A stretch of DNA of 63,670 nucleotides, the filler included, from Stramenopiles sp. TOSAG23-6 (taxonomy: Eukaryota), in the NCBI GenBank assembly GCA_900128565.1. It is 41 parts of 41 records of this genome, joined end to end, with 100 filler letters (N's around TTAATTAATTAA, not from the genome) between each part and the next. Parts side by side here need not be neighbours in the genome. Positions count along the whole stretch, not along the records: positions 60,690 to 62,130 come from LT639053.1; 40 more parts are not named here. One strand, 5' to 3'. Positions 13,992 through 63,670 of this stretch are shown here, one piece after another. The notes beneath the pieces are model-generated. The model saw only the letters and a program-made list of their open reading frames with translations. It made no database searches and had not been told where the DNA came from. Every line of letters begins with the position of its first letter. Positions within the stretch are counted from its first letter, which is position 1. The translations under genes and the position numbers were made by a program.

Positions 13992-14156
13992 GTAAAAATT
14001 TTCTTTTAAAAAAAAAANNNNNNNNNNNNNNNNNNNNNNNNNNNNNNNNNNNNNNNNNNNNTTAATTAATTAANNNNNNNNNNNNNNNNNNNNNNNNNNN
14101 NNNNNNNNNNNNNNNNNAAATTTTTTTTTTTTTTTTTTTTTTCTTTGGGAAAAAAA

Positions 14157-14199
<43 letters not shown>

Positions 14200-14214
14200 T
14201 TTTGTACAATATAG

Positions 14215-15336
14215 GGTAGTAGTGGTTATACTAGTGTTATTCATTCAGGCTATGCTTCATTAAATGATTCACAGGCCCCATCAAGACAATTATCTGGTAT
14301 TGGTTCACCAACAATGATGATGTCATCACGTCCATTAAGTTCAAGTAGTAGTCATCAGAACCCTAACCCTACTGGGCGATCTTCATCGACTAACCCTAAC
14401 CCTAACTCAATGTCATTTCGCCCCATTTTGAATTTATCTACTGGAAATACTCCTTCTATTGCATCATCTGATTCAAGACAATTATCACCAACATTGTTTA
14501 TGGGTACATCTACATTGAATACAGCAGTTGGGACACGAAAAAATAGTATTTCAAGTTCAACTGGGGTAGGGTTAGGGCTCAATTTGATAGGAAGTGGAAT
14601 TCAAACACCAATACATGAAAAGATACCCGGTACCGATCAAAATAATGATCATACCATCATGGCAGCTGAACTCGCTGATGCTTTGCGTAATTTACCTTCA
14701 GATGGATTGTCATCTAGTGATGAAGGAAAAAATAAAATGACAATGGCCGCTGCCTTTGCTGATGATCTGTTGCAATTAGATGATGATGATGATGAAAGTG
14801 ATGATGATGGTGAAAGTGATGATGATGATAAAAAAGATGATATATATAGTAAAGATAATGATGATTTCTTGGATCAGAGAGATGGTGGAATCTTGGATAA
14901 TATCAGTAGTAATACACTAAAAAATGATGAAAATGATGATGAAAATGAAGAAGATGGTGAAAGTGATGATGATGAAAGTGATGATGATGAAAGTGATGAT
15001 GATGAAAGTGATGATGATGAAAATGATGATGAAAATGATGATGAAAGTGATGATGAAAGTGATGATGATGATGATGATGATGAAAATGATGATGATGAAA
15101 ATGATGATGAAAGTGAAAATGATGAAAATTCAACTGATGATGAAGAAAAAAATAAACGACAATCACAAAAAATAATTCTGCAAACTCAAGTGGATGAATT
15201 AAATGACCGAATCAATAAATTAGAAAAAAGAATAGAAAATACAAGTAATGCAACAATGCGTATGAGAAGGGAAAAACAATTAGAAGAACAGAAAAAAAAT
15301 CGTGAAGATTTAATTAGAAAAATGAATGATTTTTGA
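14215..15336 (+). CDS. Last exon, Ser-rich then Asp/Glu-rich acidic protein with coiled-coil end
   Basis: 340-aa ORF with GATGAT/GAAAGT microsatellite-coded acidic tract. Confidence 0.65.
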   Translation, partial: GSSGYTSVIHSGYASLNDSQAPSRQLSGIGSPTMMMSSRPLSSSSSHQNPNPTGRSSSTNPNPNSMSFRPILNLSTGNTPSIASSDSRQLSPTLFMGTSTLNTAVGTRKNSISSSTGVGLGLNLIGSGIQTPIHEKIPGTDQNNDHTIMAAELADALRNLPSDGLSSSDEGKNKMTMAAAFADDLLQLDDDDDESDDDGESDDDDKKDDIYSKDNDDFLDQRDGGILDNISSNTLKNDENDDENEEDGESDDDESDDDESDDDESDDDENDDENDDESDDESDDDDDDDENDDDENDDESENDENSTDDEEKNKRQSQKIILQTQVDELNDRINKLEKRIENTSNATMRMRREKQLEEQKKNREDLIRKMNDF

Positions 15337-15680
15337 AAAAAATAAAAAAAAAATTTTAAAATTAGAAAAATATATGATTTTTGAAAAAAATAAAAAAATA
15401 AAAAAAATATAAATTTTTAAATACTCTTTTTCTTTTTAAAATCAAACCAATAAATAAATTTATTAGAAATCATTTATACACATGTAATTATTGTAATACA
15501 ATGAATAATGATTATGTGCACATTCTACATTCAAACATCATCATATAATTGAGAAATTAGCATTTATTTTTTAAATACATNNNNNNNNNNNNNNNNNNNN
15601 NNNNNNNNNNNNNNNNNNNNNNNNTTAATTAATTAANNNNNNNNNNNNNNNNNNNNNNNNNNNNNNNNNNNNNNNNNNNN

Positions 15681-15719
15681 AAATTTTTTTTTTTTTTTTT
15701 TTTTTCTTTGGGAAAAAAA

Positions 15720-15762
<43 letters not shown>

Positions 15763-17143
15763 TTTTGTACAATATAGGGTAGTAGTGGTTATACTAGTGT
15801 TATTCATTCAGGCTATGCTTCATTAAATGATTCACAGGCCCCATCAAGACAATTATCTGGTATTGGTTCACCAACAATGATGATGTCATCACGTCCATTA
15901 AGTTCAAGTAGTAGTCATCAGAACCCTAACCCTACTGGGCGATCTTCATCGACTAACCCTAACCCTAACTCAATGTCATTTCGCCCCATTTTGAATTTAT
16001 CTACTGGAAATACTCCTTCTATTGCATCATCTGATTCAAGACAATTATCACCAACATTGTTTATGGGTACATCTACATTGAATACAGCAGTTGGGACACG
16101 AAAAAATAGTATTTCAAGTTCAACTGGGGTAGGGTTAGGGCTCAATTTGATAGGAAGTGGAATTCAAACACCAATACATGAAAAGATACCCGGTACCGAT
16201 CAAAATAATGATCATACCATCATGGCAGCTGAACTCGCTGATGCTTTGCGTAATTTACCTTCAGATGGATTGTCATCTAGTGATGAAGGAAAAAATAAAA
16301 TGACAATGGCCGCTGCCTTTGCTGATGATCTGTTGCAATTAGATGATGATGATGATGAAAGTGATGATGATGGTGAAAGTGATGATGATGATAAAAAAGA
16401 TGATATATATAGTAAAGATAATGATGATTTCTTGGATCAGAGAGATGGTGGAATCTTGGATAATATCAGTAGTAATACACTAAAAAATGATGAAAATGAT
16501 GATGAAAATGAAGAAGATGGTGAAAGTGATGATGATGAAAGTGATGATGATGAAAGTGATGATGATGAAAGTGATGATGATGAAAATGATGATGAAAATG
16601 ATGATGAAAGTGATGATGAAAGTGATGATGATGATGATGATGATGAAAATGATGATGATGAAAATGATGATGAAAGTGAAAATGATGAAAATTCAACTGA
16701 TGATGAAGAAAAAAATAAACGACAATCACAAAAAATAATTCTGCAAACTCAAGTGGATGAATTAAATGACCGAATCAATAAATTAGAAAAAAGAATAGAA
16801 AATACAAGTAATGCAACAATGCGTATGAGAAGGGAAAAACAATTAGAAGAACAGAAAAAAAATCGTGAAGATTTAATTAGAAAAATGAATGATTTTTGAA
16901 AAAAATAAAAAAAAAATTTTAAAATTAGAAAAATATATGATTTTTGAAAAAAATAAAAAAATAAAAAAAATATAAATTTTTAAATACTCTTTTTCTTTTT
17001 AAAATCAAACCAATAAATAAATTTATTAGAAATCATTTATACACATGTAATTATTGTAATACAATGAATAATGATTATGTGCACATTCTACATTCAAACA
17101 TCATCATATAATTGAGAAATTAGCATTTATTTTTTAAATACAT
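15681..17143. repeat. Exact duplicate of contig 14118-15580 (redundant contig)
   Basis: Identical sequence and identical ends. Confidence 0.95.
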
Positions 17144-25050: not shown

Positions 25051-26509
25051 CACCCATCGTCACAGACTTTGCATTGATCACAGTTGTTCTCACAGGATGA
25101 AAACCAGGTGTCTTGAATTCTTTGCATAGTGATGTTTTGGCTCGTTGAAGAGTTTTCCAGGCTGTAGATTTACCAGCTAGTGTAGAACCAACAAGCATAT
25201 TACAATGACGGAGCGCCTTTGATTCGAATACTTGGACAGTTTTAAATTTAATAAAGTCTAGGACTTGAAGCCCCTGGCGCTCTAATTCGCGCTCTATAGC
25301 AGCCATTAATTGACCATAATCAACAACGGGCAATTCAAGCCCAGGAAATAAATCACCAAGAAGCAAAAGAAATAATTCGAAGTCTGCAGTGACATAAAGT
25401 TCCACAACATCCAAGTACCGCCTTCAAAGAACGCATACCATAATCGTAGTGAGATTGTTTTGACAATTGCTGAACCATAAGTTCATATAGAGTTACGGCC
25501 TTCTTGGCCAATATACGGGCTTCTCTAAACCCTTCTGCCATTAGCATTACCTCCGCAATCTGAGCAAGATCTGGGGCCATCATAGCAACAGGTCTCATGA
25601 GACTCTTCAGATTATCTGGAAGCTCTGTACGACCTGCATACCCAGGATTCATCGTAACAAATATACCACAAGACCAACGGCATGCAATCATTTGACCTTC
25701 AAACAAAAATTTTCTCTTTCGAGCTGCAATTGCATTCATAATGGACAAAATCTGACCGGCAATTACAGAAAGTACCTCGATTTCGATACGATTAAATTCA
25801 TCAAAACAACCCCAACCACCTGACTGAACCAACCCTGAAAACATTCTGCCAACACTCTTATAATCAAGACCATCAGAACAATTGAATACAACAACATACT
25901 TGGCAAGATTCTTACCTAAATCTTTTACAGTCTCTGTTTTACCTGTACCTGCAGGTCCAAGTGGATTGCCCCCACGCTGTAGACAGAGTGCCGTTGTCAA
26001 TGTAAGGACACACCTATCAGTCAAAGGAGTTACTACGAGTCGACCATTGTTACCCTGGTATTCATAACCAAACTCTAGTTCCGTGTTGGTCTGTTTTACT
26101 CGACAACGACCAAACCCATTATCACCTTCATCTTTCATAAAGTAAAATCGCTGTTGAGATAGCCACACAAAATCAGTCACCCTTGTTGCATTCTGTTTCA
26201 CCATTCTTTCCATAACATCTCGACTATGAATTTCCATTGTAATAAGAGCGACCAATTTTTTCCGCTCAATCTTGCTCAATTTGCCTCTAACAAAGTCAGA
26301 GCATTCATTGAGGTATTTAACTTGCTTCTTCTTCAGTTTCTTTACGGCGCCTTTATTTCCTTTCGTAACTGCCTCTAACGCGCGTGTGCACGCAGATGTC
26401 CACATAATTTTACCTGCAATAATCAGAAGCTGTCCTTGCCATTCTTTGATCCATTTAAGTTTTTTCTCTTTATTCGCTTTAGGATAATTTTTCAATGTCA
26501 AACATAAAA
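25051..26509 (-). CDS. Axonemal dynein heavy chain, AAA1-AAA2 fragment; apparent deletion/frameshift near 25395
   Basis: GPAGTGKTETVKDL, FNCSD, WGCFDEFNRI, TMNPGYAGRTELPDNLK, QLSKQSHYDYGMR, GSTLAGKS. Confidence 0.97.
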
Positions 26510-34393: not shown

Positions 34394-35846
34394 TTTTTTT
34401 TTTTTTTGTAAAATTTGTTAGGTACGAAATTTCGTATGAAAAAAAATTATAAATATATTTTTTTTTTTAATCCTATATAGTATGTACATATGAGCTCGCT
34501 TCAAGTCATGTAAACTTTTTACGTATTTTTTACTACGCGTACGTGGAGTTGATTGAAACATAATTTTGATTTCTCTACCTAATTTTTGTGTGTTTGAATT
34601 TTTGTTTTTTGTACTTAATTTTTGTGTGTTTGAATTTTGTAACTGTAAACACTCTTTCAACTCAATCGCACAAATTTTATTCTCATATAAAGTTACCTGG
34701 TACTGTGCATGTATATTTTTGAAATATGCAATACATGTATTTACTTTTGTTAGATAAAAAAGTGAACTACAAACAAAATAGTTACACAATATATAAATGT
34801 TCTATAAAAAAAATATTTAAAAAAAAAAAAATCGAAATTGAAAAAAAAAAAATTGAAATGAGTAATACAATAATAATGGTAAAATACATGACGGATATTT
34901 TCATCAAGGATAGGCAAATGATTACTCTTGGTATTTTTTATCAAATGACTCATGTTATTATACTGTTTATCTATAGAATGATTTTCGGACATTTTCTCTA
35001 GTGTCTCGATTTCTTGCAGTGCAACTAATTTTGCTATTTCTTGTTGTCGTCTATTTAATGTGAACGATATATATATATATATATTTGTTAGGTACAAAAT
35101 TTCGTATAAAAAAAAAAATAAAAAAAAATAAAAATAAAAAAAATAACTTATCTTTCTCAATTTTTGTAACTCTTTTTTCTGTAACGCTGACAAACATCTC
35201 TTCATTGGATTAGGGTTAGGGTTCTTCATTGGGTTTGGGCTACTTTGTGTACTATCCTGTAGACCATGTATTTTGGAAAAATATTTCAAAAAAAAATTTT
35301 AAAATTTGTTAGGTACGAAATTTCGTACGAAAAAAAAAATCGAATTTGAAAAAAAATAAAACATACATGTATATCATTCTGTTCTTTGTGTTGATTCATT
35401 TCATCAGAATTATCTTTTGTATTGGAATGATAAATACTTGACTCAATTGTTCCATGATGTTTGCTAATCGAATGCACTCCTGTAACATTACTTTCTTTAG
35501 TGTTATGTTCAATATTATGTAAAGCTTTGTTGATTTTATGAACTTCTGCCTCAACGGCATGTTCAATATTATGTTCAATATTATGTATTTCATTCATAGC
35601 TTTATGAGCTTCTGCTGCAACAGCATGTTCAATATTTTGTAAGTCATTCTTAAGTTTATGAGCTTCTGCTCCAACGGCATGTTTAATATTATGTTCAATA
35701 TTATTTAACTCATTATTGATTTTATGTGCTTCTGCTCCAACAGCATGTTCAATATTATGTTCAGTATTATGTATTTCATTCTTAAGTTTATGAGCTTCTG
35801 CTCCAACAGCATGTTCAATATTATGTAACTCATTCTTAGCTTTATG
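34394..35846 (-). CDS. His-rich repetitive protein fragment (IEHNIEHAVxAExHK repeats) with at least 4 family introns
   Basis: Tandem coding repeats at 35500-35846; elements on the minus strand. Confidence 0.55.
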
Positions 35847-42298: not shown

Positions 42299-43477
42299 TT
42301 GTTATTGGACCACCAAATTCGCGAGAATCCTCATTCACACCGAAATTTACAATAAAAGCAGCAAATATGTTACGAAAATCAGGTTTATTAGTCTCTGTAT
42401 CTAAATTGAAATATATACCGATTCATTGTCGTGTATGTTACAGTTTTTTTTCCAAATTTATTTTTCATACAAAATTTTGTACCTAACGAATTAAAAAAAA
42501 AAAAAAAATTGAAATATTTCTTCACAGTGCATGCCATTGAAGTATTAGAATGGTTAAACGAAATCTGTGATTATCATCCATCTCTAAAAACGATAATTGC
42601 AATTTCACTTTGCCGCCATATTTCAAAAAATAAATTCGAAATTCGTCGTCGACGGTGTAGTAGTCAAGTATGTTGTATATGAATTTTTAATTTTTTTTTT
42701 TTTTGGTTTTCATACGAAATTTCGTACCTAACGATTTTTTTTTATATGAATTTTTAATTTATTTATTTTTTTTGGTTTCATACGAAATTTCGTACCTAAA
42801 CAATTTTTTTTTTTGATATATTGTTTAAAAGTACAAGGTTCTCTATTGGATCGATTATTATTTGGTTCACCAGAAAAGACAAATGTAAAAAACCCTAACC
42901 CTAGACAAAAAAAAATAATCCAAAATGAAACACAAAATAAAAAACAAAATAAAAAACAAAATAATGAAAAACAAAACTCATTAATACAGTCATCAACCAA
43001 TATGAATATGAGTGCATCATTTGATGTTACAACTACCAATATTGATAATATTCATAATTTTGATGATGAAATCGAATCAAAATCAAATGGAATGGAAAGA
43101 GAAACAAAAACTTCAGACATTGGACATTCAACTAACCCTAACCCTAACCCTAATGATTCTACTTCAAATATTCGTGAAGATTCTTCTAATAATCATCATA
43201 CAATAGTTGACGATAACTCTAATAAGAACGTTCAATCAACAAGCCATACGTGGAGTTTACCAGGCGTAAATACTGTATTAAATGTTTTTTCAAGATTGAA
43301 CTCGGCTTCATCAGGGAACAGACCTGTTGCTAATCGTACTAACCCTAACCCTAATACTACTGCATCTGATGAGGTACCTTTTGTGGAAAACACGAATTCT
43401 GAAAATATACAGTCCAATGGTGAGACAGATGAAATTATCGAAGGAATTATCGAAGAATCTGGTTTATTAGAAGATAT
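42299..43477 (+). CDS. Possible UBR-type E3 ligase N-terminal region fragment
   Basis: GLLVSV...AIEVLEWLNEIC....L..II...SLLDRLL pattern across family introns. Confidence 0.45.
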
Positions 43478-43701: not shown

Positions 43702-45150
43702 GCGAAGACTTTGGAAAAATCTGGAAATTAAAAATTCGTCATAAAAAATTGCCAAAAAATTCGTCATAAAAAAATTGCCAAAAAATTCGATATAGTATTA
43801 GTATTAGGGTTTATAAATAAGAGCAATTTTATTAATTATAACCAGAGCCAGCGCCGTCAGAGCGTTATAGATTGATCTGGGTTAGAAGCATTATTCGGGT
43901 ATTATTGCGTACATATGTCGAAGCAATAGGGTTAGGGTATTATTGCGTACATATGATAAAGCATAAGCAATACATCCGCAATAACATGCGGTCGGATGTT
44001 GGCTTTTAGCACCGTTGTAACAACGGCTACTCTTTTTCTACAATGGTTTCTACTACATATAAACATATAGAACATTGTGAACTAGATGAATCTCCGTTAA
44101 ACTACATTAAACTGCAACATGATTCCCAGAGGCTTGAAAGGAATCTCTGCATAAGAGATCTAAATATTCTGAATCTCTCGGATCTAAAACAACGTCGGCA
44201 TACAGATGTTGGAGACGTTGTCGTGGGGTCATCTTCTCATATCCGCTTATTCTTTCTAACATTTCGGATTTCATTTGTCTGTTAAATTGCATGTCTTGTT
44301 TTTGTCGTTTATGAAGACGAGAAACACACTTAAGGCCACGCTGCTTACAGTAGATGCAATACCTGTCCCATGGGTTAAGAAACCTACAAGCTTTATGTTT
44401 TTTATAACACTCTTCGCACGTCGCTCTTTTTTCAAACACAGTACTAGGCATCCTCCCTCCTAAGCTTGAAATTATCATAATGTCATCATATAATCCGCGT
44501 TTTACGCCGAGTTTGAAGGATATGACAGAAATTGTGTTCTCTTTTTACACGAGAGGAGCTAACGCGTGTGACACTACACGAGCGTGTTTGTCGTTTTTGT
44601 CTTTCGAATTCACGTGCACAGCACGTGCACGAAATTTTCTGCAGCCATTCGTTCTTCTTCATCAGATTCTAAAAAAATAAATTCGAAATTGAAAAAAAAA
44701 AATGAAATTTCAAATTTGTTTTGGTTTATTTAATTTATTTTGGTTCCATTTTGGTTTATTTTTTTTTGGTTAAAACTTTTTTTATAAACCCTAACCCTAA
44801 CAATTTTTTCTCATGAGTCATGACCAAAGCTCAGATACATACCGACCATCAAATTCCAAAGATGAAATATACTCTTTTGCATTGTTTTGTGATAAATTAC
44901 CAAATTGCATAGCGATGTTCTCAAATGTAGAATGGACAGACCTGCCCATAGATGTACCACCACAAACAAATATTGAACCACCACATTCCTTTATCATGTA
45001 ACAATACACAAAAAAGTCATAACACTAAGTTTTACATTTTTTCACAAAAAAAAATAAAAAAAAAAAAAAGTATGAAATTTCACAAAAAAAAATAAAATAA
45101 AAAAAAAAAAAGTATGAAATTTAAAAAAAAAAAAAAAAAAATAAAAAAAT
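43702..45150. repeat. Near-identical to contig 49891-51334 (allele or dispersed element); short tandem repeats at the left end
   Basis: Right ~1 kb identical; left ~430 bp differs by SNPs and indels. Confidence 0.9.
44107..44451 (-). CDS. Small Zn(II)2Cys6 (Gal4-type) cluster protein
   Basis: CEECYKKHKACRFLNPWDRYCIYCKQRGLKC = C-x2-C-x6-C-x9-C-x2-C-x6-C. Confidence 0.7.
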   Translation of the reverse strand: MPSTVFEKRATCEECYKKHKACRFLNPWDRYCIYCKQRGLKCVSRLHKRQKQDMQFNRQMKSEMLERISGYEKMTPRQRLQHLYADVVLDPRDSEYLDLLCRDSFQASGNHVAV

Positions 45151-49790: not shown

Positions 49791-50290
49791 NNNNNNNNNN
49801 NNNNNNNNNNNNNNNNNNNNNNNNNNNNNNNNNNTTAATTAATTAANNNNNNNNNNNNNNNNNNNNNNNNNNNNNNNNNNNNNNNNNNNNCTTTGGAAAA
49901 ATCTGGAAATTAAAAATTCGTCATAAAAAATTGCCAAAAAATTCGACATAAAAAATTGTCAAAAAATTCGTCATAAAAAATTACCAAAAAATTCGTCATA
50001 TTATTAGTATTATTATAAATAAGAGCAATTTTATTAATTACACCCAGAGCCAGCGCCGTCAGAGCGTTACAGATTGATCTGGGTTACAAGCATTATTCGG
50101 GTATTATTGCGTACATATGTCGAAGCAATAGGGTTAGGGTATTATTTCGAAGCAATATATCCGCAATACATGCGGTCGGATGTTGACTTTTAGCACCGTT
50201 TTAACAATGGCTACTCTTTTTCTACAATGGTTTCTATTACATATAAACATATAGAACAGTGTGAACTAGATGTCTCTCCGTTAAACTACA

Positions 50291-50635
50291 TTAAACTGCA
50301 ACATGATACCCAGAGGCTTGAAAGGAATCTCTGCATAAGAGATCTAAATATTCTGAATCTCTCGGATCTAAAACAACGTCGGCATACAGATGTTGGAGAC
50401 GTTGTCGTGGGGTCATCTTCTCATATCCGCTTATTCTTTCTAACATTTCGGATTTCATTTGTCTGTTAAATTGCATGTCTTGTTTTTGTCGTTTATGAAG
50501 ACGAGAAACACACTTAAGGCCACGCTGCTTACAGTAGATGCAATACCTGTCCCATGGGTTAAGAAACCTACAAGCTTTATGTTTTTTATAACACTCTTCG
50601 CACGTCGCTCTTTTTTCAAACACAGTACTAGGCAT
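50291..50635 (-). CDS. Second copy/allele of the Zn2Cys6 ORF (N>Y near the C-terminus)
   Basis: Translation differs from 44107-44451 at one residue. Confidence 0.7.
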   Translation of the reverse strand: MPSTVFEKRATCEECYKKHKACRFLNPWDRYCIYCKQRGLKCVSRLHKRQKQDMQFNRQMKSEMLERISGYEKMTPRQRLQHLYADVVLDPRDSEYLDLLCRDSFQASGYHVAV

Positions 50636-51477
50636 CCTCCCTCCTAAGCTTGAAATTATCATAATGTCATCATATAATCCGCGTTTTACGCCGAGTTTGA
50701 AGGATATGACAGAAATTGTGTTCTCTTTTTACACGAGAGGAGCTAACGCGTGTGACACTACACGAGCGTGTTTGTCGTTTTTGTCTTTCGAATTCACGTG
50801 CACAGCACGTGCACGAAATTTTCTGCAGCCATTCGTTCTTCTTCATCAGATTCTAAAAAAATAAATTCGAAATTGAAAAAAAAAAATGAAATTTCAAATT
50901 TGTTTTGGTTTATTTAATTTATTTTGGTTCCATTTTGGTTTATTTTTTTTTGGTTAAAACTTTTTTTATAAACCCTAACCCTAACAATTTTTTCTCATGA
51001 GTCATGACCAAAGCTCAGATACATACCGACCATCAAATTCCAAAGATGAAATATACTCTTTTGCATTGTTTTGTGATAAATTACCAAATTGCATAGCGAT
51101 GTTCTCAAATGTAGAATGGACAGACCTGCCCATAGATGTACCACCACAAACAAATATTGAACCACCACATTCCTTTATCATGTAACAATACACAAAAAAG
51201 TCATAACACTAAGTTTTACATTTTTTCACAAAAAAAAATAAAAAAAAAAAAAAGTATGAAATTTCACAAAAAAAAATAAAATAAAAAAAAAAAAAGTATG
51301 AAATTTAAAAAAAAAAAAAAAAAAATAAAAAAATNNNNNNNNNNNNNNNNNNNNNNNNNNNNNNNNNNNNNNNNNNNNTTAATTAATTAANNNNNNNNNN
51401 NNNNNNNNNNNNNNNNNNNNNNNNNNNNNNNNNNATACATCTTACTAAAACTTACTGTATTTTTTTGCCTTTTTCAG

Positions 51478-52878: not shown

Positions 52879-53075
52879 NNNNNNNNNNNNNNNNNNNNNN
52901 NNNNNNNNNNNNNNNNNNNNNNTTAATTAATTAANNNNNNNNNNNNNNNNNNNNNNNNNNNNNNNNNNNNNNNNNNNNAAAATATTTTTTAAAATTTTTT
53001 TGTAATTTGTTTTGTTAGGTACAAAATTTCGTACGAAAAAAAAATAAATTTGAAATTTAAAAAAATAAAACATAC

Positions 53076-54131
53076 GTGCAATGCAGGTTGACAATTTTCG
53101 AAACTATTTATCATTGCGACAAAGACTAATACGATAATAGACACAATAAAATGAAAACTACGCCAAATTTTTGGACTACGAGCAGGCCAACCACCAATTG
53201 CTTTGACTAACTCAGGAGTCTTATATAGCGAGTAAACCCTCCAAAATATATATATATTGATAAAAAATATATCAAATTTGAAATTCGTTAGGTATAGAAT
53301 TTTTTTAACNAAAAAAAAAAAAAATACTTTCGTTAGGTACAAAATTTCGTACGAAAACTATTAAAAAAAAAATTAAAATTGTTTGTACAGGTGAAAACAT
53401 ANAAGCCGCTATAAGCAAAGTAGATAAAATAGATAGAACAAAGCCAACTGTATTCATATTCTCCTTTGTAATACCACTTGAATTTAAAAGAGTACTCACT
53501 TGACCATTTCCTGTTCCAGTCGCATGTATTGTGAAAAAATACTTTCAAAAAAAATCGTTAGGTACAAAATTTTCATAGTAAAAAAATAAATTTGAAATTT
53601 ATGATAAAAACGTACAAGAATTGTAATGTCAGCACAATTATAATAATTCTGATCACCGTCCCAGAACCACTGAAGAACACAATTATCGCATGTAGCTGTA
53701 GATGGTATTGTAACTTGCTTGGTTTCTGTTCCTTGAGCAGCACCACAGTTGAAAGATCCAGTGAGGTCAAATGTATCAGGAGACGTTGCATCAAGAACTC
53801 CTTGGTTGTTTACAGTGTATTCCGCATCGTCATTTTCTCCTGGTGCAATGGACTTTGTAGTCAAGCTTATTCGACAAGTGCCACCATGTGGAATAGTAAT
53901 TTGATGTGTTACTGTCATGGTTTGACCTGCCTCAAAGACTGCTGAAGGAGCACCCTTTATTTGCTGGTTTTCATCACCACAAGGACCAACCCCAGCTCCA
54001 CCTTTGTTGTTTCCTGCGTCACTGACACCAGTTCTAGGTTGAGGTACCGTCAGAAGTCCATGACCATATACTAAAGGCTGCGACACAAGCAAAACTAAAA
54101 TATGTGCCGTAGTGGATAATAAAGAATACAT
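53076..54131 (-). CDS. Secreted LPMO-like (histidine-brace) domain followed by transmembrane segments; introns 53524-53615 and ~53248-53402
   Basis: Signal peptide VYG|HG; P.PR; PCG; IPHGG; C..C.LQW; YYNCAD. Spliced continuation has at least 2 hydrophobic helices. Confidence 0.8.
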
Positions 54132-54521
54132 TTCAATGAAATCTTTTTATAAGCACAAAGATATATTATATTTTATGTCGAGATAAATCACGATTCAAAC
54201 GATTCAAAGTCGAAGACGCTAAAAAACGCGCCAACCCCAACCCTAACCAAAGGTATATAGATACCTTTGACCCTATAACCGCTAGCCTAAAATAATTAAT
54301 GAATCTTATTTTTATGCATATGAGAGAGAGAGAGAGAGAGAGGGTACCGTTTCACATTTTGCATATATAAATTCAAAATTGAGTAATATATATATATATA
54401 AATGAAAGATTATTCATATTTNNNNNNNNNNNNNNNNNNNNNNNNNNNNNNNNNNNNNNNNNNNNTTAATTAATTAANNNNNNNNNNNNNNNNNNNNNNN
54501 NNNNNNNNNNNNNNNNNNNNN

Positions 54522-55964
54522 AAAATATTTTTTAAAATTTTTTTGTAATTTGTTTTGTTAGGTACAAAATTTCGTACGAAAAAAAAATAAATTTGAAATT
54601 TAAAAAAATAAAACATACGTGCAATGCAGGTTGACAATTTTCGAAACTATTTATCATTGCGACAAAGACTAATACGATAATAGACACAATAAAATGAAAA
54701 CTACGCCAAATTTTTGGACTACGAGCAGGCCAACCACCAATTGCTTTGACTAACTCAGGAGTCTTATATAGCGAGTAAACCCTCCAAAATATATATATAT
54801 TGATAAAAAATATATCAAATTTGAAATTCGTTAGGTATAGAATTTTTTTAACGAAAAAAAAAAAAAATACTTTCGTTAGGTACAAAATTTCGTACGAAAA
54901 CTATTAAAAAAAAAATTAAAATTGTTTGTACAGGTGAAAACATANAAGCCGCTATAAGCAAAGTAGATAAAATAGATAGAACAAAGCCAACTGTATTCAT
55001 ATTCTCCTTTGTAATACCACTTGAATTTAAAAGAGTACTCACTTGACCATTTCCTGTTCCAGTCGCATGTATTGTGAAAAAATACTTTCAAAAAAAATCG
55101 TTAGGTACAAAATTTTCATAGTAAAAAAATAAATTTGAAATTTATGATAAAAACGTACAAGAATTGTAATGTCAGCACAATTATAATAATTCTGATCACC
55201 GTCCCAGAACCACTGAAGAACACAATTATCGCATGTAGCTGTAGATGGTATTGTAACTTGCTTGGTTTCTGTTCCTTGAGCAGCACCACAGTTGAAAGAT
55301 CCAGTGAGGTCAAATGTATCAGGAGACGTTGCATCAAGAACTCCTTGGTTGTTTACAGTGTATTCCGCATCGTCATTTTCTCCTGGTGCAATGGACTTTG
55401 TAGTCAAGCTTATTCGACAAGTGCCACCATGTGGAATAGTAATTTGATGTGTTACTGTCATGGTTTGACCTGCCTCAAAGACTGCTGAAGGAGCACCCTT
55501 TATTTGCTGGTTTTCATCACCACAAGGACCAACCCCAGCTCCACCTTTGTTGTTTCCTGCGTCACTGACACCAGTTCTAGGTTGAGGTACCGTCAGAAGT
55601 CCATGACCATATACTAAAGGCTGCGACACAAGCAAAACTAAAATATGTGCCGTAGTGGATAATAAAGAATACATTTCAATGAAATCTTTTTATAAGCACA
55701 AAGATATATTATATTTTATGTCGAGATAAATCACGATTCAAACGATTCAAAGTCGAAGACGCTAAAAAACGCGCCAACCCCAACCCTAACCAAAGGTATA
55801 TAGATACCTTTGACCCTATAACCGCTAGCCTAAAATAATTAATGAATCTTATTTTTATGCATATGAGAGAGAGAGAGAGAGAGAGGGTACCGTTTCACAT
55901 TTTGCATATATAAATTCAAAATTGAGTAATATATATATATATAAATGAAAGATTATTCATATTT
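54522..55964. repeat. Duplicate of contig 52979-54421 (redundant contig)
   Basis: Identical apart from one N. Confidence 0.95.
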
Positions 55965-57506: not shown

Positions 57507-57692
57507 NNNNNNNNNNNNNNNNNNNNNNNNNNNNNNNNNNNNNNNNNNNNTTAATTAATTAANNNNNNNNNNNNNNNNNNNNNNNNNNNNNNNNNNNNNN
57601 NNNNNNTTTCAAAATTTTTTTTAAAATTTTTTTCAAAATTTTTTTTAAAATTTTTCAAAAAAAAAATAAAAAATAATATGATTAAAACGAAC

Positions 57693-58800
57693 TTCAGATG
57701 CTAAAATTGCAGTTTTAAATGAACCTGATGTAGCTTGTGCACTTGATCCACATAATCCTCTATAAATACCAATCATTTGAACACGATCACCAGGTTTACA
57801 TTTATCAACAAGATCATTATCATGTATTGTAAAAAAATATTTATGAAATTTCGTACGAAAAAAAAATTTTAAATTAAAAAAAAAAAATAAAAAAAATAAC
57901 GTACAAGAACAACATCAACAGCACATGGTAATTGACCCATTGGTGCATGTTCAGGCATTTCTTGTATAACTAATGTTTGATGATCTTTATAAGATGACCA
58001 ACCAAATTCTGTTTCAATGTTTTGTATAAAAATATAATTTTTTTTTAAATTTGAAATGTTTCGTTAGGTATGAAATTTCATATAAAAAAAAAAAAAAATT
58101 GAAAAAAAAAAAAAAAAAAATTTGAAAAAAAAAAAACACAGGGGATTTCCTTCATCATCTTTAGTTGGATAGACACTTCCTGTAGGTAATCCAGATGTTG
58201 ATGTTGCATCACGATATTCACGTTGAATACTTTTTCCTGTTTTTGGACAATAATGTACACTACGTACAACTTTAGGTCGTACAAGAGACACTTTATATAT
58301 TTTTGAAAAATATTTTTTAAAATTTAATTTTTTTTTTCTTAGGTACAAAATTGACTACGAAAAAAAATTGAAAAAAAAAAAATTGAAAAAAAAAAATTGA
58401 AAAAAAAAAAATACAGTCGCGATTCTAAAAAGTTACTTAATAAACTACGTGGTGTTACATGATGACGGCCAAAACTACCCATAAAACCAATATGAAATTC
58501 AACATCTTCTTGGTTTTTACCATAGGATGGATCAATATGTAATACAACATCTTTTAAAGCACTTTCAAAAGCAGGAACAAAAGCTAATGGTGTTTGTAAG
58601 ACACGGGAACATAAATCAGCATCGAAGGCACGTAAATCATCTAAATCTAAAAGGAAACGTGTTTTTTTATCATCAAGCATTGATTGAACCTTTTTCATAT
58701 TGACATTATCCATATCATCAGCGTCAAGGAAATCCTGAAATCTACGCTTGTTTGCGTTATACTCCTCGTCGTCTTCACCCATGCCTCCAATACCTGACAT
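57693..58800 (-). CDS. MCM3: DNA replication licensing factor MCM3, N-terminal part; GT-AT introns 58295-58414, 58017-58139, 57822-57904
   Basis: [43 protein letters not shown]...IQEMPE.AP.GQLP; DLVD..KPGDRV. Confidence 0.95.
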
Positions 58801-59202
58801 TATTGTTTTGTATATATTTAACGTGTCGTGCTGTACAACTTTGTCGCTGTAGCAATTTCTTTGTTTAAAGTATCGTATTCAAAAGTAAAGTAGTTTAACT
58901 ATTACTTGATTAGACAATGCACAAATGTATCAGATTATAATGTTGTTGAAAATGATAAAGTAAGAAATATGAAACACTGTGTTCTATTCTATATGAAAAT
59001 AATATGAAAATCTTTCTTTTTTTTTTTTTTTTTTTTTTTTAATTTTTTNNNNNNNNNNNNNNNNNNNNNNNNNNNNNNNNNNNNNNNNNNNNTTAATTAA
59101 TTAANNNNNNNNNNNNNNNNNNNNNNNNNNNNNNNNNNNNNNNNNNNNGTACGAAATTTTGTACCTAACGATTTTTTTTTGAAATATTTTTCCAAAATAC
59201 AT

Positions 59203-60508
59203 GGGATCAAATGTCAAAAGCAAAGAAGAGAAGATTGCGTAAAATTGCACATCAACAAAAAGAAGAAGCAGCTGCTGCTATAATTGCTCAGAAAGAATGC
59301 GAAGAACGCAAATTAAAGGAAAACATGGTCAAAACTATCAAGGCTCGTATGCATCCCATGTACGTTTTCATCATTCTTTTCAAATTTATTTTTTTTGTAT
59401 GAAAATTCCGTATCTAATGATTTTTTTTACAAACAAAAAAAAAATATTTTTCACTATACATGTATAAAAGGTTTCACTTTAACTTGATGAATCTTAATCA
59501 ACCTATTGAAAAAGTACGTAGTGAAATGAAAGCGAAGTTTTTAGATTTGAGTGTGATTGATGGTAGTCGATGGGAAGAGCAAATTCCTCTACGTGGTCAA
59601 GGTACTCATCCAGATGCACCATGTATGTTTTATTTTTTTTCAATATCGATTTTTTTTCGTACGTAATTTTGTACCTAAGGGTTTTTTTTTTGAAATATTT
59701 TTCCAAAATACATCAAAATCATCAAAACGTCGAGATAGAATTAAAAGAGCCAAAATAAAATTAAGGCGAAATGCACCAATTGAAGAAAGATCATGTTGGC
59801 ATGAAGTGGGTAAAACAAATCCGCATTCGTTTGAATCAAAAAATAATCCAAAAAAAAAGACAAAAAAGAAAACTGTGGTTAAAATTGACAAACAAAAAAC
59901 TGTATTTATTTCTGGTTTGCCTCACCATGTTGGAATGAANAATGTCAGAAAATATTTTAAGCAATGTGGTGCTATAGCATTTATTACACTACCAAAGTTT
60001 GAAGATACAGGCCTTTCTAGAGGCATTGCTCAGGTGTATATTTTCATTATGAATTTCGATTTTTTTTTGTATGAAAATTTTTTTTATACGAAATTTTGTA
60101 CCTAACAAAAAAATAATTTGAAATATTTTTTCACAATACATTACTTTTACCAGGAAGGCTAGTGCAATGAGAGCCTTAGAACTAAATGGAGAATATTGGG
60201 GCTCTCGATATTTGGAAATTACACCACATGATGGAGGAGATCAGTGGCAACCAACGATGGACAAACCTGTTGGGTGTAAAACTATATTTGTAGGTAATTT
60301 AAGTTATGAAGTAGAAGAAGAAATTTTAAAGGAAGCATTTAAAGAAAGTGGTGAAATTCAATCACTTCGTTGGGGCACTGAAAAAGAATCTGGCGATTTT
60401 CGTGGATTTGCTCATATTACATTTTATAAGGAAGAAAGTGTTGGAAAAGCTGTAAAAATGGCTGGATCTATATTCTTAGGAAGACCTTTAAAAATTGACT
60501 ATGCTAAT
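59203..60508 (+). CDS. Two-RRM RNA-binding protein (nucleolin-like) fragment; introns 59360-59461, 59623-59713, 60036-60141
   Basis: TVFISGLP...RGIAQVTF; TIFVGNLSY...FRGFAHITF. Confidence 0.88.
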
Positions 60509-60689: not shown

Positions 60690-62130
60690 TCTTTTTGGTG
60701 AAGGTATGTTTTTTTTTTTCAATTTCGAATTTATTTTTCTTTTCGTACGAAATTTCGTACCTAACAATTTTTAAAAAAATATATTTTTTCACAATATATG
60801 TTTAATCAAAGTTTTATTTGCTACAGAAACTTTTGCAATGGGTATCAATATGCCTGCCAAAACTGTTGTTTTTACTGCTGCTCGTAAATTTGATGGTACA
60901 GATACGCGATATATAACTGCTGGTGAATATATACAAATGTCTGGANNNNNNNNNNNNNNNNNNNNNNNNNNNNNNNNNNNNNNNNNNNNNNNNNNNNNAT
61001 GTCTGGACGAGCTGGTCGTACGTTTTCATCATAACCCTAACCCTAACGTTTTCATCATTCATTTCAATTTTTTTTTTTTTTTTAGTATGAAATTTCGTAC
61101 CTAATAATTTGTTTTTTAAAACATATTTTTTCATAATACATGTCGTGGGTTAGATGATCGTGGTATAGTTATACAAATGATTGATGAAAAAATGGAACCT
61201 GGTGCAGCACGTCAAATATTAAAAGGAGTTGCAGATCCTCTAAATTCATCCTTTCATTTAGGTTATAATATGTTATTAAATTTATTACGTGTGGAAGAAG
61301 CAAATCCAGAGGATGTATGTTTTATTTTTTTTATGATTCGCCAGTCTTTTCTTCAGTTTCAGACAGCTTCAATTTGTCCAAAGCTTAGAGAAGAGATTTT
61401 AAATTGTACAGAAAAAAGAGATTTAATTAATGTTCGAGATGAATCTTCTGTATCTTCATATTTTAAATTGACTGAACAAATGTCATATGAAGCACACAGT
61501 ATGATGAGACATATGTTTCAACCACAATATATTTTACCTTTTATGCAGCCTGGTCGTCTTGTCAAGATTAGAGATGATCATGGACAGGATTGGGGTTGGG
61601 GTGTAGTGATTAATTTCAGTAGGACACGGGGACGAAAAAGTAATGACAATGCACGTAAAAATGGGACGTCTACAAATATTACTGGTACTGAAGAGGAGGA
61701 TACATACGTCGCTGAATGTTTACTTCATGCTGCTAGTCGGCCAACTGGATCTATGGCCAAGGCGACACCATTTGTGGATTTGAAAGAAGACGAAAAACAC
61801 TTACAAAAAGATAAAAAAATGTCTACACATAAAAAACAGAAAAAGTCAAATAATCAAAATACCATTGTAAAAGATAGTGGTGAGATGGTCATTTTGCCAT
61901 TACTTCTTACCCAATTAGAAGCTGTGAGTACGGTACGTATTTTTGTACCTAAAGATCTTCGTATGCGTGAAAAACGAGACAGTGTTAGACGGTCTATTGA
62001 AGAAGTTCAACGGCGTTTTCCCAATGGACTTCCATTGTTAGATCCCTTGGAAGATTTGGGTATCGAAGACAAAGTAAGTTATTTTTTTCATTTTTTTTAT
62101 TTTTTTCATTTCTTTTATTTTTTCCTAGAT
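60690..62130 (+). CDS. MTR4: Exosome RNA helicase MTR4 fragment; GT-AT introns 60704-60799, 61018-61141; canonical GT-AG intron 62074-62128
   Basis: [64 protein letters not shown]. Confidence 0.95.
61018..61141 (+). mobile_element. Representative non-canonical GT-AT intron (introner-like family) splitting helicase motif VI
   Basis: GGT C|GTACG...TAATACAT|GT CGT restores GRAGRRG; there is no usable AG. Confidence 0.9.
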
Positions 62131-62230: not shown

Positions 62231-62861
62231 ACCTCACGTACAATTTCACTTAAGAAAGTTTGTGGAGTCATTTCTTTTTCAATACGATAATTCAAGCAAT
62301 GATCATTTTTTTGGTTTTTGTGAGTACCAATAAAATAATTTGTCGGGCCATGCTTTGAAGAAACATCAATGAGCGGAATGAAAACAGTGAGACAATGAGG
62401 AGGGAGAGAATTCGTGTTTTTATCGTTGAGCTCTGAAAAAAGAATTTCTCCATCTCGATGAGTATGTATTTTGGAAAAATATTTTTTTTTTTTTCGTAAA
62501 AAAAAAATCATTAGGGACAAAATTTCGTACGAAAAAATAAAACATATATCTTGAACAGTACTACCTGGCATTGAAATGACTACCCCGGTCTTCACAAGAT
62601 AGCAAGCTGGACCAAGAAGACTTTTTATAATAGATCGCCAGCTAGAATTCCAACGAAGTTGCTTGAAAGGTGACTCATTCGTGTATTCAAAAAAATATAT
62701 CAAATTTGAAATTCGTTAAGTACGGAATTTCGTATGAAAAAAGTTGGAGGTAAAAAAATCATGATGAAAACGTACATATCAAGTATAACATCAAAACGAA
62801 GTGGACTTCTACACACAATTTCACCGCATTGTCCTCCTTGAATATGAACGATTTCTCTCAT
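62231..62861 (-). CDS. PhyH-like 2OG-Fe(II) dioxygenase fragment whose first 13 codons match the beta-tubulin N-terminus; introns 62681-62775, 62464-62547
   Basis: GVVISMPGS..Q..H.DG; LTVFIPL.DV....GPT....GTH; N-terminus MREIVHIQGGQCG. Confidence 0.75.
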
Positions 62862-63670
62862 GTTTATCTTACCTACGTTAGTAATTTATATGCAATTATA
62901 AATATAATGAGTCGTTAGTGAAAAGGTGGAAATGGGGAGACGAACTTTGAGATTTGCTTTGAAGTTTTCAAAACGTACTTTGTTATATAGGCTTTATATG
63001 TAAACAGGAAGAGTTATTACCGGCTGCTTACGAACGAAAACACAAATTTTCGTTTATGATTTCAATCCTTTTGAAGTTGATGTCCCATCAAAAATGAAAC
63101 GCTATTTTTACAATTTTTCAATTTTCGTAGTTAAATGGTACGGAAGAGAAATAAATTAGAAATTCAGTCTGCTTGCGCCGTGGTGGACAAAACTATTCGA
63201 AAGGCATTCGAAAGATTTTTTTCAAACTTGAAATTGGAATCATAATATTTTAATATAGCTACAAAAAAAGANNNNNNNNNNNNNNNNNNNNNNNNNNNNN
63301 NNNNNNNNNNNNNNNNNNNNNNNNNNNNNNNNNNNNNNNNNNNNNNTGGAAAAAAGTGATATTAGTACTACGGACAGTAATAATGATTCCGATGCAGAGC
63401 GTAAGAGGCGTCAGTTTCTCCAAAAATTTTGGTTCAAGGCATTAAAAGCAAAACATGTCGCGTATAAAAGAGAGAAGCTAGGAAAGTCTCAAAGTGAACT
63501 CGTGTCAAATACAACAATAACACATCTTCCAAAAAATCCAGTTTTAAGCCTTCGATTCTTGTTAACACAAGAAGAGAGGGAAAATCGAATAAGTGTGTCG
63601 AATAAAGAAGCTGCAGTGAATGCACTACTCCAGCACGGTGTTTGCTGTTTAGACGGGGCTGTCAAAAAAA

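What the first reader, a model, noticed from the sequence alone, without database searches (positions are those of the whole stretch)
60704..62128. Canonical GT-AG and GT-AT introns coexist in one gene
SEEN: MTR4 has two GT-AT family introns and a 55-nt GTAAGT...CTAG intron (62074-62128) that lacks the family motif. Canonical acceptors also occur at 51477 and ~62874 (TACTAACGTAG, minus strand). INFERENCE: one organism processes both classes, through a permissive spliceosome or two machineries. The non-canonical class is far more common in this window.
Basis: partly seen in the sequence, partly recalled or inferred. Interest (0 to 1): 0.6.

Follow-up and report, generated by a model that had tools for sequence, protein, structure and literature searches.

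The report
One ordinary-looking intron among GT-AT introns
A helicase gene fragment of an uncultured marine protist carries copies of a repeated intron that ends in AT instead of AG, plus the start of an unrelated intron with a textbook beginning, but the sequence stops before that intron ends, so it cannot show that normal and unusual introns are spliced side by side.

Summary
The window is not one locus. It is 41 scaffolds of about 1.45 kb joined by artificial linkers. The MTR4 fragment is one scaffold (60690-62130).

Confirmed:
- Two members of a repeated intron family lie at 60704-60799 and 61018-61141.
- Protein homologs fix both junctions to the residue.
- GT...AT is the one register that also fits the other family copies.
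- A third copy is probably collapsed to 18 nt at 61315-61332.
- Homology to MTR4 stops exactly at 62073. GTAAGT follows, and an 82%-identical relative also breaks after the same residue. So a non-family intron really starts at 62074.

Not confirmed:
- The 55-nt length and the CTAG acceptor. Only 2 nt follow before the scaffold ends. The implied next residue (I or M) occurs in 0 of 93 homologs.
- The other two "canonical acceptors". One is 43 nt from a scaffold start. The other is in a 5' leader.
- I found no complete non-family GT-AG intron in the window.
- No RNA contig bridges any junction.

Best reading: one U2-type spliceosome anchored on a strong donor and branch site, lax about the last intron base. 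A rival is a minor-spliceosome-like machinery, which is known to accept GT-AT.

The coexistence claim stays open. The GT-AT family itself is the interesting part.

The parts
60690..60703 (+). MTR4 exon a (scaffold starts inside it): ...LFGE plus the first base of the G codon
   Evidence: Translation and homolog alignment
60704..60799 (+). Family intron 1, 96 nt, GTATGT...ATAT, branch-like TACCTAAC at 60757-60764. The register can shift by +1 or +2 because GT follows it
   Evidence: nhmmer 46.3 bits, model positions 1-103. The homolog alignment starts at L 60802 and the G codon is split G|GT
60800..61017 (+). MTR4 exon b ([11 protein letters not shown]...EYIQMSGRAGR), interrupted by the assembly gap 60946-60998. 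The gap's flanks repeat ATGTCTGGA, so the gap is spurious and no residue is missing
   Evidence: homologs read MSGRAGRRGLDD without a break
61018..61141 (+). Family intron 2, 124 nt, GTACGT...ACAT. It carries a 15-nt telomere-like insert (61033-61047) flanked by an 11-nt direct repeat (61022-61032 and 61048-61058)
   Evidence: nhmmer 38.1 bits. The junction GRAGR|RGLDD is exact in the 5 homologs that span it (P0001, P0005, P0008, P0010, P0024; P0013 leaves the same small gap) and in 7 of the 9 short relatives read. Insert read
61142..62073 (+). MTR4 exon c (RGLDDRG...GIEDK; stalk and beta-barrel domains)
   Evidence: Pfam. tblastn HSPs end at 62073 in 4 of 8 homologs and between 62019 and 62070 in 4 others
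61315..61332 (+). 18-nt in-frame insert (VCFIFF) equal to the first 18 nt of the family consensus. Probably a third family intron collapsed by the assembly, or mostly deleted
   Evidence: A 6-residue gap in the three homolog alignments printed. Absent in the 84% relative P0122. Independent DNA contigs of run X1 both break at 61332 and carry 5 and 24 letters there that do not fit the window (table 8, records 7 and 8)
62074..62130 (+). 5' part of a non-family intron: GTAAGT, then T-rich sequence, up to the scaffold end.
   Evidence: Homology stops at 62073. The relative P0121 reads ...GIEDK, then V and 36 unrelated residues. No family-model hit. Scaffold end

Best explanation
The stretch is one 1.44-kb scaffold holding the middle of an MTR4/DOB1 RNA-helicase gene of an uncultured, AT-rich marine protist. 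The gene is interrupted by two, and probably three, copies of a dispersed ~100-nt intron family. The family looks transposon-derived. It starts GTATGT or GTACGT, carries a branch-like TACCTAAC about 35-49 nt before its end, and ends in AT. A further, unrelated intron starts with the consensus donor GTAAGT at 62074. This last intron sits at a position shared with an 82%-identical relative, so it is probably an older, ordinary intron. Its 3' end lies at or beyond the scaffold end and is unknown. The CTAG two bases before the scaffold end is only a candidate. Most likely mechanism (inferred, not shown): a single U2-type spliceosome removes both kinds. It is anchored by yeast-like strong donor and branch-site signals. 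It does not require G as the last intron base. It does not scan for the first AG. Shown here: gene identity, exact exon junctions of the two family introns at the protein level, the exon end at 62073, and the non-family nature of the 57 nt that follow. Inferred: removal at the RNA level, GT..AT as the cut sites, and one machinery.
For: Junctions: homologs align without gap or insertion across both family introns. Register: of 20 distinct copies with both ends placed by the family model, 16 had open flanks of 25 codons or more, and in 14 of those 16 the GT..A[T/C] register gave the best frame continuity (binomial p = 1.2e-5 against 1/3). Ends: 37 of 41 distinct 3' ends are AT. The 5' hexamers are GTATGT 18, GTACGT 10 and GTACAT 1 of 29. 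These match the yeast-type U2 donor consensus and not the U12 consensus [G/A]TATCCTT quoted in 10.1101/2020.10.12.336362. AG is not the cue: in 14 of 41 copies an AG lies between the branch-like motif and the 3' end, and the first AG is in frame in only 17 of 41. Donor at 62074: 4 homolog HSPs end exactly at 62073. The relative P0121 breaks after the same K, and its next codon is V, i.e. GTN. An independent DNA contig (X1 record 8, 774 nt aligned, 3 differences) and an RNA-library contig (X7 record 32) both carry exon c joined to the GTAAGT stretch, so the exon-intron boundary is not an assembly artefact. Non-family: no model hit at E 1000, whereas 27 of 29 true family 5' 57-mers score 6 bits or more (17 of them had been used to build the model).
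Against: No RNA junction was seen for any of the introns. The X7 RNA-library contig runs unspliced from 61873 to 62123, though the same library carries family-intron sequence at DNA-like depth. The set of termini seen in the family (GT-AT, AT-AT, GT-AC) is the set known to be tolerated by the minor (U12-type) spliceosome (passages of PMC1557818; Physarum preprint). That favours a second machinery. The assembly is poor: a spurious gap, an 18-nt intron remnant, and elsewhere introns that are out of frame with conserved residues missing. So single-copy details deserve caution. In 2 of 16 usable family copies the GT..AT register was not the best frame. Truncated at 57 nt, 2 of 29 true family members escape the model, so a family member with a long 5' arm is not excluded.
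Confidence: 0.55

Rival explanations
1. Two machineries. The family introns are removed by a minor (U12-type-like) spliceosome that has expanded through a transposon, as in Physarum. The GTAAGT intron is removed by the major spliceosome. Coexistence in one gene would then be the ordinary U2/U12 situation, with an unusual ratio.
For: The U12-type machinery is reported to splice GT-AT and AT-AN productively (passage of PMC1557818). [quoted passage not shown] The family here shows GT-AT (37 of 41), one AC end and an AT-starting member at 62464-62555 on the minus strand. Its donor GTATGTTTT differs from the Physarum U12 donor [G/A]TATC[C/T]TTT at one position. AGs after the branch motif are skipped, as expected if the 3' site is not AG-defined.
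Against: The donor is GTATGT or GTACGT in 28 of 29 copies, which is the strong U2-type form. The branch-like motif lies mostly 33-49 nt from the 3' end, with a mode of 35. U12-type branch sites normally lie about 10-20 nt from the end (recalled; the preprint uses a search window of up to about 45). No minor-spliceosome snRNA is in the window (Rfam gathering scan), but 64 kb is far too little to judge.
Confidence: 0.2
2. One reading: 62074-62128 is a complete 55-nt canonical GT-AG intron, and the next exon starts at 62129.
For: GTAAGT at a homology-defined exon end. T-rich tract followed by CCTAG. A TTTAT branch candidate 12 nt upstream of the AG (read).
Against: Only AT follows before the scaffold ends, so nothing tests frame or homology. 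Phase 0 plus AT. would give I or M, whereas the residue at that place in 93 homologs is E 23, S 21, D 17, A 17, G 7, other 8, and never I or M. All listed laid pieces stop at 62123 or earlier, and one X7 contig carries other letters after 62123 (tables 5c and 8). So the last 7 nt have no independent support.
Confidence: 0.2
3. The third intron is a diverged relative of the family, or another AT-ending intron, with a long T-rich 5' arm. Its core and its ...AT end lie beyond the scaffold end. The gene would then hold no canonical intron at all.
For: Its first 14 nt after the G (TAAGTTATTTTTTT) recur exactly once elsewhere in the window, at 35137-35150 on the minus strand. There they open an intron that does contain the family core. 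2 of 29 true family members, truncated at 57 nt, also escape the model. Nearly every intron-like AT-rich stretch in the window is family-related.
Against: 0 of 29 family 5' ends read GTAAGT. No model hit at E 1000. The position is shared with a relative, whereas family intron 2 and the collapsed copy are absent at their positions in the 84% relative P0122.
Confidence: 0.15
4. The interruptions are not spliced from RNA at all. They would be assembly or amplification artefacts, insertions in dead gene copies, or DNA removed from a somatic genome.
For: The assembly shows collapses and spurious gaps. No RNA junction was obtained.
Against: Independent metagenome DNA contigs (X1 records 6 and 7) carry the intron-exon junctions of introns 1 and 2. 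The flanking exons keep conserved residues and frame. 14 of 16 copies restore the frame exactly, which random insertions in pseudogenes would not.
Confidence: 0.05

Closest known systems
Introner elements / transposon-derived introns (Micromonas, Aureococcus, dinoflagellates and others). Review PMC11282704, passages read; 10.1101/2022.06.06.494994 and PMC12130899, listing and passages
   Same: Many near-identical short introns in unrelated genes. Short inverted ends (ATGTAT/ATACAT). A junction duplication: AT precedes the donor in 17 of 27 copies, and G follows the end in 25 of 37.
   Different: Published introners were curated as using GT/GC/GA/AT donors and AG or AC acceptors (PMC12130899 passage). 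This family ends in AT. RNA proof is lacking here.
Non-canonical introns and introners of Amoebophrya (PMC7789003, abstract and passages)
   Same: A marine protist in which canonical and non-canonical introns coexist in one genome, with repeated, mobile-looking members. This is the closest precedent for the coexistence idea.
   Different: Amoebophrya shows no dominant terminal dinucleotide pair, and its ends form 8-20-nt hairpins. Here one pair (GT-AT) dominates, and donor and branch signals look conventional.
Non-canonical U2-type introns of Fritillaria borealis (abstract of 10.1101/2025.08.15.670264; passages of PMC11282704 and PMC12621601)
   Same: A major spliceosome thought to have shifted its specificity so that most introns escape GT/AG, with a MITE origin proposed. 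It is a model for 'one permissive machinery'.
   Different: In Fritillaria both ends are highly diverse. Here the donor stays GT and only the last base differs. U2AF or snRNA changes are untested here.
U12-type introns with non-canonical termini, and the Physarum expansion (PMC1557818 passages; 10.1101/2020.10.12.336362 passages)
   Same: GT-AT and AT-AT are documented, spliceable U12-type termini. They coexist with U2-type introns in the same genes. In Physarum they spread with transposon-like ends.
   Different: The donor and the branch-site distance here do not fit the U12 consensus. No minor-spliceosome parts could be looked for.
Nonconventional introns of euglenids and hemistasiid diplonemids (PMC12621601 abstract and two sections; PMC6221363 passages)
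   Same: They coexist with conventional introns, and their ends can pair.
   Different: Those lack GT and U1 complementarity and have variable borders. The family here keeps a GT donor and a branch motif. The 6-nt end complementarity shows no compensating changes: the 5' ends and the full copies show GTACGT copies keeping ...ATACAT.

Membership tests
Canonical U2-type GT-AG intron (claimed for 62074-62128) | GT donor with U1-type consensus at a true exon end | tested here: met
   GTAAGT directly after the last homologous residue. The relative P0121 breaks at the same residue.
Canonical U2-type GT-AG intron (claimed for 62074-62128) | AG acceptor joined in frame to a downstream exon that continues the protein | not testable with these tools
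   The scaffold ends 2 nt after the AG. No genome is held. No relative locus was found. A weak counter-hint: I or M is predicted, against 0 of 93 homologs.
Canonical U2-type GT-AG intron (claimed for 62074-62128) | Removal from RNA at these sites | tested here: inconclusive
   No joint at 62073 in any of the 4 runs. One RNA-library contig is unspliced to 62123.
GT..AT intron family of this genome (for 62074-62130) | Similarity to the family model, including the core TTCGTACGAAATTTYGTACCTAA | tested here: not met
   No nhmmer hit at E 1000. 27 of 29 truncated true members score 6 bits or more. The region beyond 62130 is unseen.
GT..AT intron family (for 60704-60799 and 61018-61141) | Family model match over the full length and a junction that restores the protein exactly | tested here: met
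   46.3 and 38.1 bits. Exact junctions.
Introner elements | Many similar copies at unrelated intron positions in unrelated genes | tested here: met
   78 model hits, in MTR4, MCM, RRM, XPG, lipin/LNS2, BEACH and other genes.
Introner elements | Transposon signature (target duplication, inverted ends) | tested here: inconclusive
   AT precedes 17 of 27 donors and G follows 25 of 37 ends. The inverted ends are only 6 nt. Both MTR4 copies lack the upstream AT.
Introner elements | Precise splicing shown by RNA | tested here: inconclusive
   No bridging RNA contig. Frame restoration in 14 of 16 copies is indirect.
U12-type (minor) introns | Donor [G/A]TATCCTT and branch site TTCCTT[G/A]AC close to the 3' end | tested here: not met
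   The donor is GTATGT or GTACGT in 28 of 29 copies. The branch-like TACCTAAC mostly lies 33-49 nt from the end. Consensus as quoted.
U12-type (minor) introns | Presence of U11, U12, U4atac and U6atac and specific proteins in the organism | not testable with these tools
   Only 64 kb is held. The Rfam scan found one tRNA only.

The most novel reading that the evidence does not exclude
In this protist a single spliceosome uses AG-ending old introns and AT-ending new introns side by side in the same pre-mRNA. It fixes the 3' cut by something other than the AG, since in 14 of 41 family copies an AG downstream of the branch motif is passed over. MTR4 would then be a compact natural test gene, with three AT-ending family introns and one consensus GTAAGT...AG intron within 1.5 kb. 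It could show how the second catalytic step tolerates U in place of G at the last intron position.
Probability: 0.3. Interest if true: 0.7.

Novelty: new variant of a known kind. Interest (0 to 1): 0.4.

Why it matters
If confirmed by cDNA, a genome whose commonest introns end in AT would be a rare natural exception to the GT-AG rule in which only one base of the rule is changed. A gene that mixes AG and AT acceptors would allow a direct test of whether one spliceosome reads both. It also matters in practice. Gene finders that insist on AG will mis-model most genes of this organism, and the short-read assembly visibly collapses neighbouring intron copies. The specific claim of this finding, a canonical intron in the same gene, adds little until the acceptor is seen. 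Coexistence of canonical and non-canonical introns as such is already known in Amoebophrya, euglenids, hemistasiid diplonemids and Fritillaria.

Tried and rejected
1. RNA evidence. One search (look-up of sequencing runs) found only small-share RNA runs. No RNA contig joins across any intron. RNA cover is limited to 61696-61947 (X6), 61873-62123 (X7) and 61740-61915 (X10).
   - The polyA run X10 has no cover on the family core of intron 1, while the DNA run X1 and the 'RNA other' runs X6 and X7 have very high summed depth there. This is absence of cover and I do not count it as evidence.
   - Likewise no listed piece covers 62124-62130.
   - The many joints to 61313 are cross-matches between family copies.
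2. Extending the gene. No genome is held. The search for related loci in metagenome contigs gave 12 loci, all distant (27-52%, plus one GC-rich locus with a short 81% segment), and none from this organism. Exact-pattern scans of genome contigs and viral contigs for the family core found 0. No other scaffold of the window holds the MTR4 C-terminus.
3. Looking for any complete canonical intron.
   - A GT..YAG scan with 45 or more open codons on both sides gave 48 candidates. All were in-exon AGs behind family introns or implausible.
   - All GTAAG[TA] sites with 30 or more open codons upstream were checked. 1836 is a TAA stop, and 6164 is again at a scaffold end.
   - 62 AT-rich stretches lie outside family hits. 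They are mostly degenerate family copies or intergenic.
   - The dynein gene break at about 25356-25423 lacks about 25 profile positions and looks like a deletion or misassembly, not an intron.
4. Family copies that seem to end in AG (14214/15777, 13873, 42837, 35051). Their upstream exon is missing or several registers fit, so they are unresolved.
5. AG use. The first AG after each MTR4 family intron happens to be in frame, but it would delete GLIK and RRGLD, including part of helicase motif VI. Across the family the first AG is in frame in 17 of 41.
6. Taxon. I considered marine diplonemids. Gawryluk et al. 2016 is recalled and not held; it is described in passages of PMC12621601, PMC6221363 and PMC6792441. 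I also considered MAST-4 (PMC5269757 passages). Left open.
7. Literature. Searches found no paper describing a GT-AT-dominated intron family. Supplements were not opened.
8. Earlier notes of this scan read the same family as GT..AT. They are not independent evidence.

Full report
WHAT THE WINDOW IS. The 63,670 bases are not one locus. Forty copies of the linker N44+TTAATTAATTAA+N44 cut it into 41 scaffolds of 1440-1471 bp, sorted by length. Neighbouring scaffolds are therefore unrelated. Some are near-duplicates of each other. No whole genome is held. The finding lies in one scaffold, 60690-62130, which has an inner N gap at 60946-60998. GC content is about 30%. The stretch is held by seawater metagenomes and by small 2015 runs of an unnamed 'organism A', so the source is a marine protist. 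I did not place it further.

THE GENE. ORF 61120-62130 matches Pfam MTR4_beta-barrel (3.2e-41) and MTR4-like_stalk (1.5e-10). Eight homologs were aligned to the window by tblastn.
- One block covers 60802-60945 ([11 protein letters not shown]...EYIQMSG, 73-79% identity in the four homologs that cover all of it, 69-78% in the two that start at 60838-60841).
- A second block covers 61144-62073 (RGLDDRG...GIEDK).
- The few residues between the blocks (RAGR) are encoded at 61005-61017.
- The N gap is spurious. Its flanks repeat ATGTCTGGA and no residue is missing.

THE TWO FAMILY INTRONS. A core motif occurs 58 times at 3 or fewer mismatches, against 0.00 expected. I built a profile from 17 complete copies, and it finds 78 hits in the window, about one per 800 bp. 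Hits lie in MTR4, an MCM gene, an RRM protein, an XPG-family nuclease, a lipin, a BEACH protein and others.
- In MTR4 the profile covers 60704-60798 (46.3 bits) and 61019-61141 (38.1 bits).
- Homologs read LFGEG|LIKVLF and SGRAGR|RGLDD with nothing missing or added. Seven of the nine short relatives I read, at up to 79% identity, carry MSGRAGRRGLDD, or that string changed at one residue, uninterrupted. The closest one (P0122, 84%) reads RAGRRGLDD behind a different start, and one fragment begins after the junction.
- Because GT follows each intron, three registers give the same mRNA: GT..AT, TA..TG, and AT..GT or AC..GT.
- Other copies exclude the shifted registers. At 60036-60141 the RNP1 octamer of the RRM fixes the junction and allows only GT..AT or TG..CA. 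GT..AT is the one register common to all.

FAMILY-WIDE CHECKS.
- Twenty distinct copies had both ends placed by the profile, and 16 of them had at least 25 open codons on both sides. In 14 of those 16 the predicted register gave the best frame continuity (p = 1.2e-5 against 1/3). The two MTR4 copies fell in the 'flanks too short' group and rest on homology.
- Of 41 distinct complete 3' ends, 37 are AT and 1 is AC. Three are probably misplaced.
- Tail tetramers: ACAT 27, ATAT 10, GCAT 3, TCAT 1, ACAC 1, ATAG 2 (one locus on duplicate scaffolds), ACAA 1.
- The 5' hexamers: GTATGT 18, GTACGT 10, GTACAT 1 of 29.
- AT precedes the donor in 17 of 27 copies, and G follows the end in 25 of 37. That is a transposon-like or insertion-site signature.
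- An AG lies between the branch-like TACCTAAC and the end in 14 of 41 copies. The first AG is in frame in 17 of 41. So AG is not what sets the cut.

A PROBABLE THIRD FAMILY INTRON. Every homolog alignment I printed shows a 6-residue gap opposite VCFIFF (61315-61332). The 84% relative P0122 also lacks it. These 18 nt equal the first 18 nt of the family consensus. Independent DNA contigs of run X1 both break at 61332 and carry 5 and 24 letters there that do not fit the window (records 7 and 8). The simplest reading is a full family intron at 61314/61333 that this assembly collapsed. Similar trouble is visible in the MCM gene, where one 'intron' is out of frame and 7 conserved residues are missing.

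THE THIRD INTRON, THE HEART OF THE FINDING. Four of eight homolog alignments end exactly at 62073 (GIEDK). The others end a few residues earlier. What follows (VSYFFHFF...) is not MTR4.
- A protein of an 82%-identical relative (P0121) reads ...[12 protein letters not shown], then V and 36 unrelated residues. That relative is therefore interrupted at the same place by something starting GTN. So an intron starts at 62074, at a position older than the split of the two organisms.
- By contrast, at the places of family intron 2 and of the collapsed copy, the 84% relative P0122 reads straight through.
- The donor GTAAGT is found in 0 of 29 family copies.
- The 57 nt available give no hit to the family profile even at E 1000. 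Among true members truncated to 57 nt, 27 of 29 score 6 bits or more (most were training sequences).
- The exon-intron boundary is confirmed by independent contigs: X1 record 8 (DNA) and X7 record 32 (RNA library).

WHAT CANNOT BE SHOWN. The scaffold ends at 62130, two bases after the CTAG. There is no downstream exon.
- With phase 0 the next codon would be AT., giving I or M. At that place 93 homologs have E 23, S 21, D 17, A 17, G 7 and others 8, and never I or M. This is a mild argument against 62128 as the acceptor.
- The first 14 nt after the G recur exactly once, at 35137-35150 on the minus strand. There they open an intron that does contain the family core and starts with A instead of G. 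A diverged family member with a long 5' arm is therefore not excluded.
- The two other 'canonical acceptors' do not help. The one at 51477 is 43 nt from the start of another scaffold and is preceded by ATACAT. The TACTAACGTAG near 62874 on the minus strand is 11 nt before the ATG of a dioxygenase-like gene, with only 5 nt from branch A to AG.
- Three scans for any complete non-family GT-AG intron found none that is convincing.

MECHANISM. The family has the look of strong U2-type introns: a yeast-like donor, a TACTAAC-like branch motif, and a T-rich tract. Only its last base deviates. I therefore favour one U2-type spliceosome that does not need a terminal G (inferred).
- The main rival is a minor-spliceosome-like machinery. 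GT-AT and AT-AN are reported as productive U12-type termini (PMC1557818). GT-AT and AT-AT are frequent among Physarum's expanded, transposon-like U12-type introns.
- Against that rival, the donor and the branch distance (mode 35 nt) do not fit the U12 consensus.
- Precedents for one altered major spliceosome exist in Fritillaria (abstract). Precedents for coexistence of canonical and non-canonical introns exist in Amoebophrya, euglenids and hemistasiid diplonemids.

VERDICT. The claim of a complete canonical GT-AG intron, and with it the coexistence argument, cannot be decided from this scaffold. My literature searches found no description of a GT-AT-dominated intron family. Nine earlier notes of this scan on the same genome read the family the same way, also without RNA proof.

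Noticed in passing
whole window; e.g. 61033-61047, 35196-35210 (-), 42893-42904: 32 short telomere-like tracts (CCCTAACCCTA, mostly 12 nt, three of 18 nt) lie in exons, introns and spacers, against 0 in 50 shuffles. At least two are flanked by direct repeats (11 nt at 61022/61048; 9 nt CCAATGAAG around 35210), like small insertions with target duplication.
   Followed up: partly
61315-61332: An 18-nt in-frame insert (VCFIFF) in MTR4 equals the first 18 nt of the intron family. Independent DNA contigs break here and carry other letters. It is probably a family intron collapsed by the assembly.
   Followed up: partly
58300-58425 (-), MCM gene 57607-59048: One family 'intron' is out of frame and about 7 conserved residues of the MCM N-terminal domain are missing. 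This suggests two neighbouring introns and a micro-exon merged by the assembly. Two other introns of the gene restore conserved residues exactly (NPL|ETE, VDVVL|DND).
   Followed up: partly
62464-62555 (-): A family intron in a phytanoyl-CoA-dioxygenase-like gene starts ATATGT instead of GTATGT and still restores the frame (..VQD|THRDGE..), i.e. AT..AT.
   Followed up: partly
35051-35152 (-): An intron with the family core opens (A)TAAGTTATTTTTTT, the same 14-mer as the MTR4 third intron. Several registers (GA..AG, AT..AT) keep the frame.
   Followed up: partly
25356-25423 (-): A dynein heavy-chain AAA1 region loses about 25 profile positions and shifts frame over about 50 nt, with no intron-like sequence. 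It is probably a deletion or an amplification chimera.
   Followed up: no
14118-15580 = 15681-17143; 52979-54421 ~ 54522-55964; 43702-45150 ~ 49891-51334: Pairs of near-identical scaffolds, so counts of introns in the window include duplicates unless they are removed.
   Followed up: partly
53499-54146 (-) and 55042-55689 (-): An ORF with an LPMO_10 (AA10 lytic polysaccharide mono-oxygenase) domain (1.6e-10), interrupted by family introns. That makes it a gene of the protist, not of a bacterial contaminant.
   Followed up: no
homolog fragments, e.g. P0008, P0015, P0017, P0023: Many metagenome gene calls of MTR4 from other organisms end in ..KLLRV plus unrelated residues, 8-9 residues after the position of the third intron here. 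This hints at a widely shared intron position just downstream.
   Followed up: no
2843-2917 (-): A tRNA-Arg(ACG) gene, the only Rfam or ARAGORN hit in the window.
   Followed up: no
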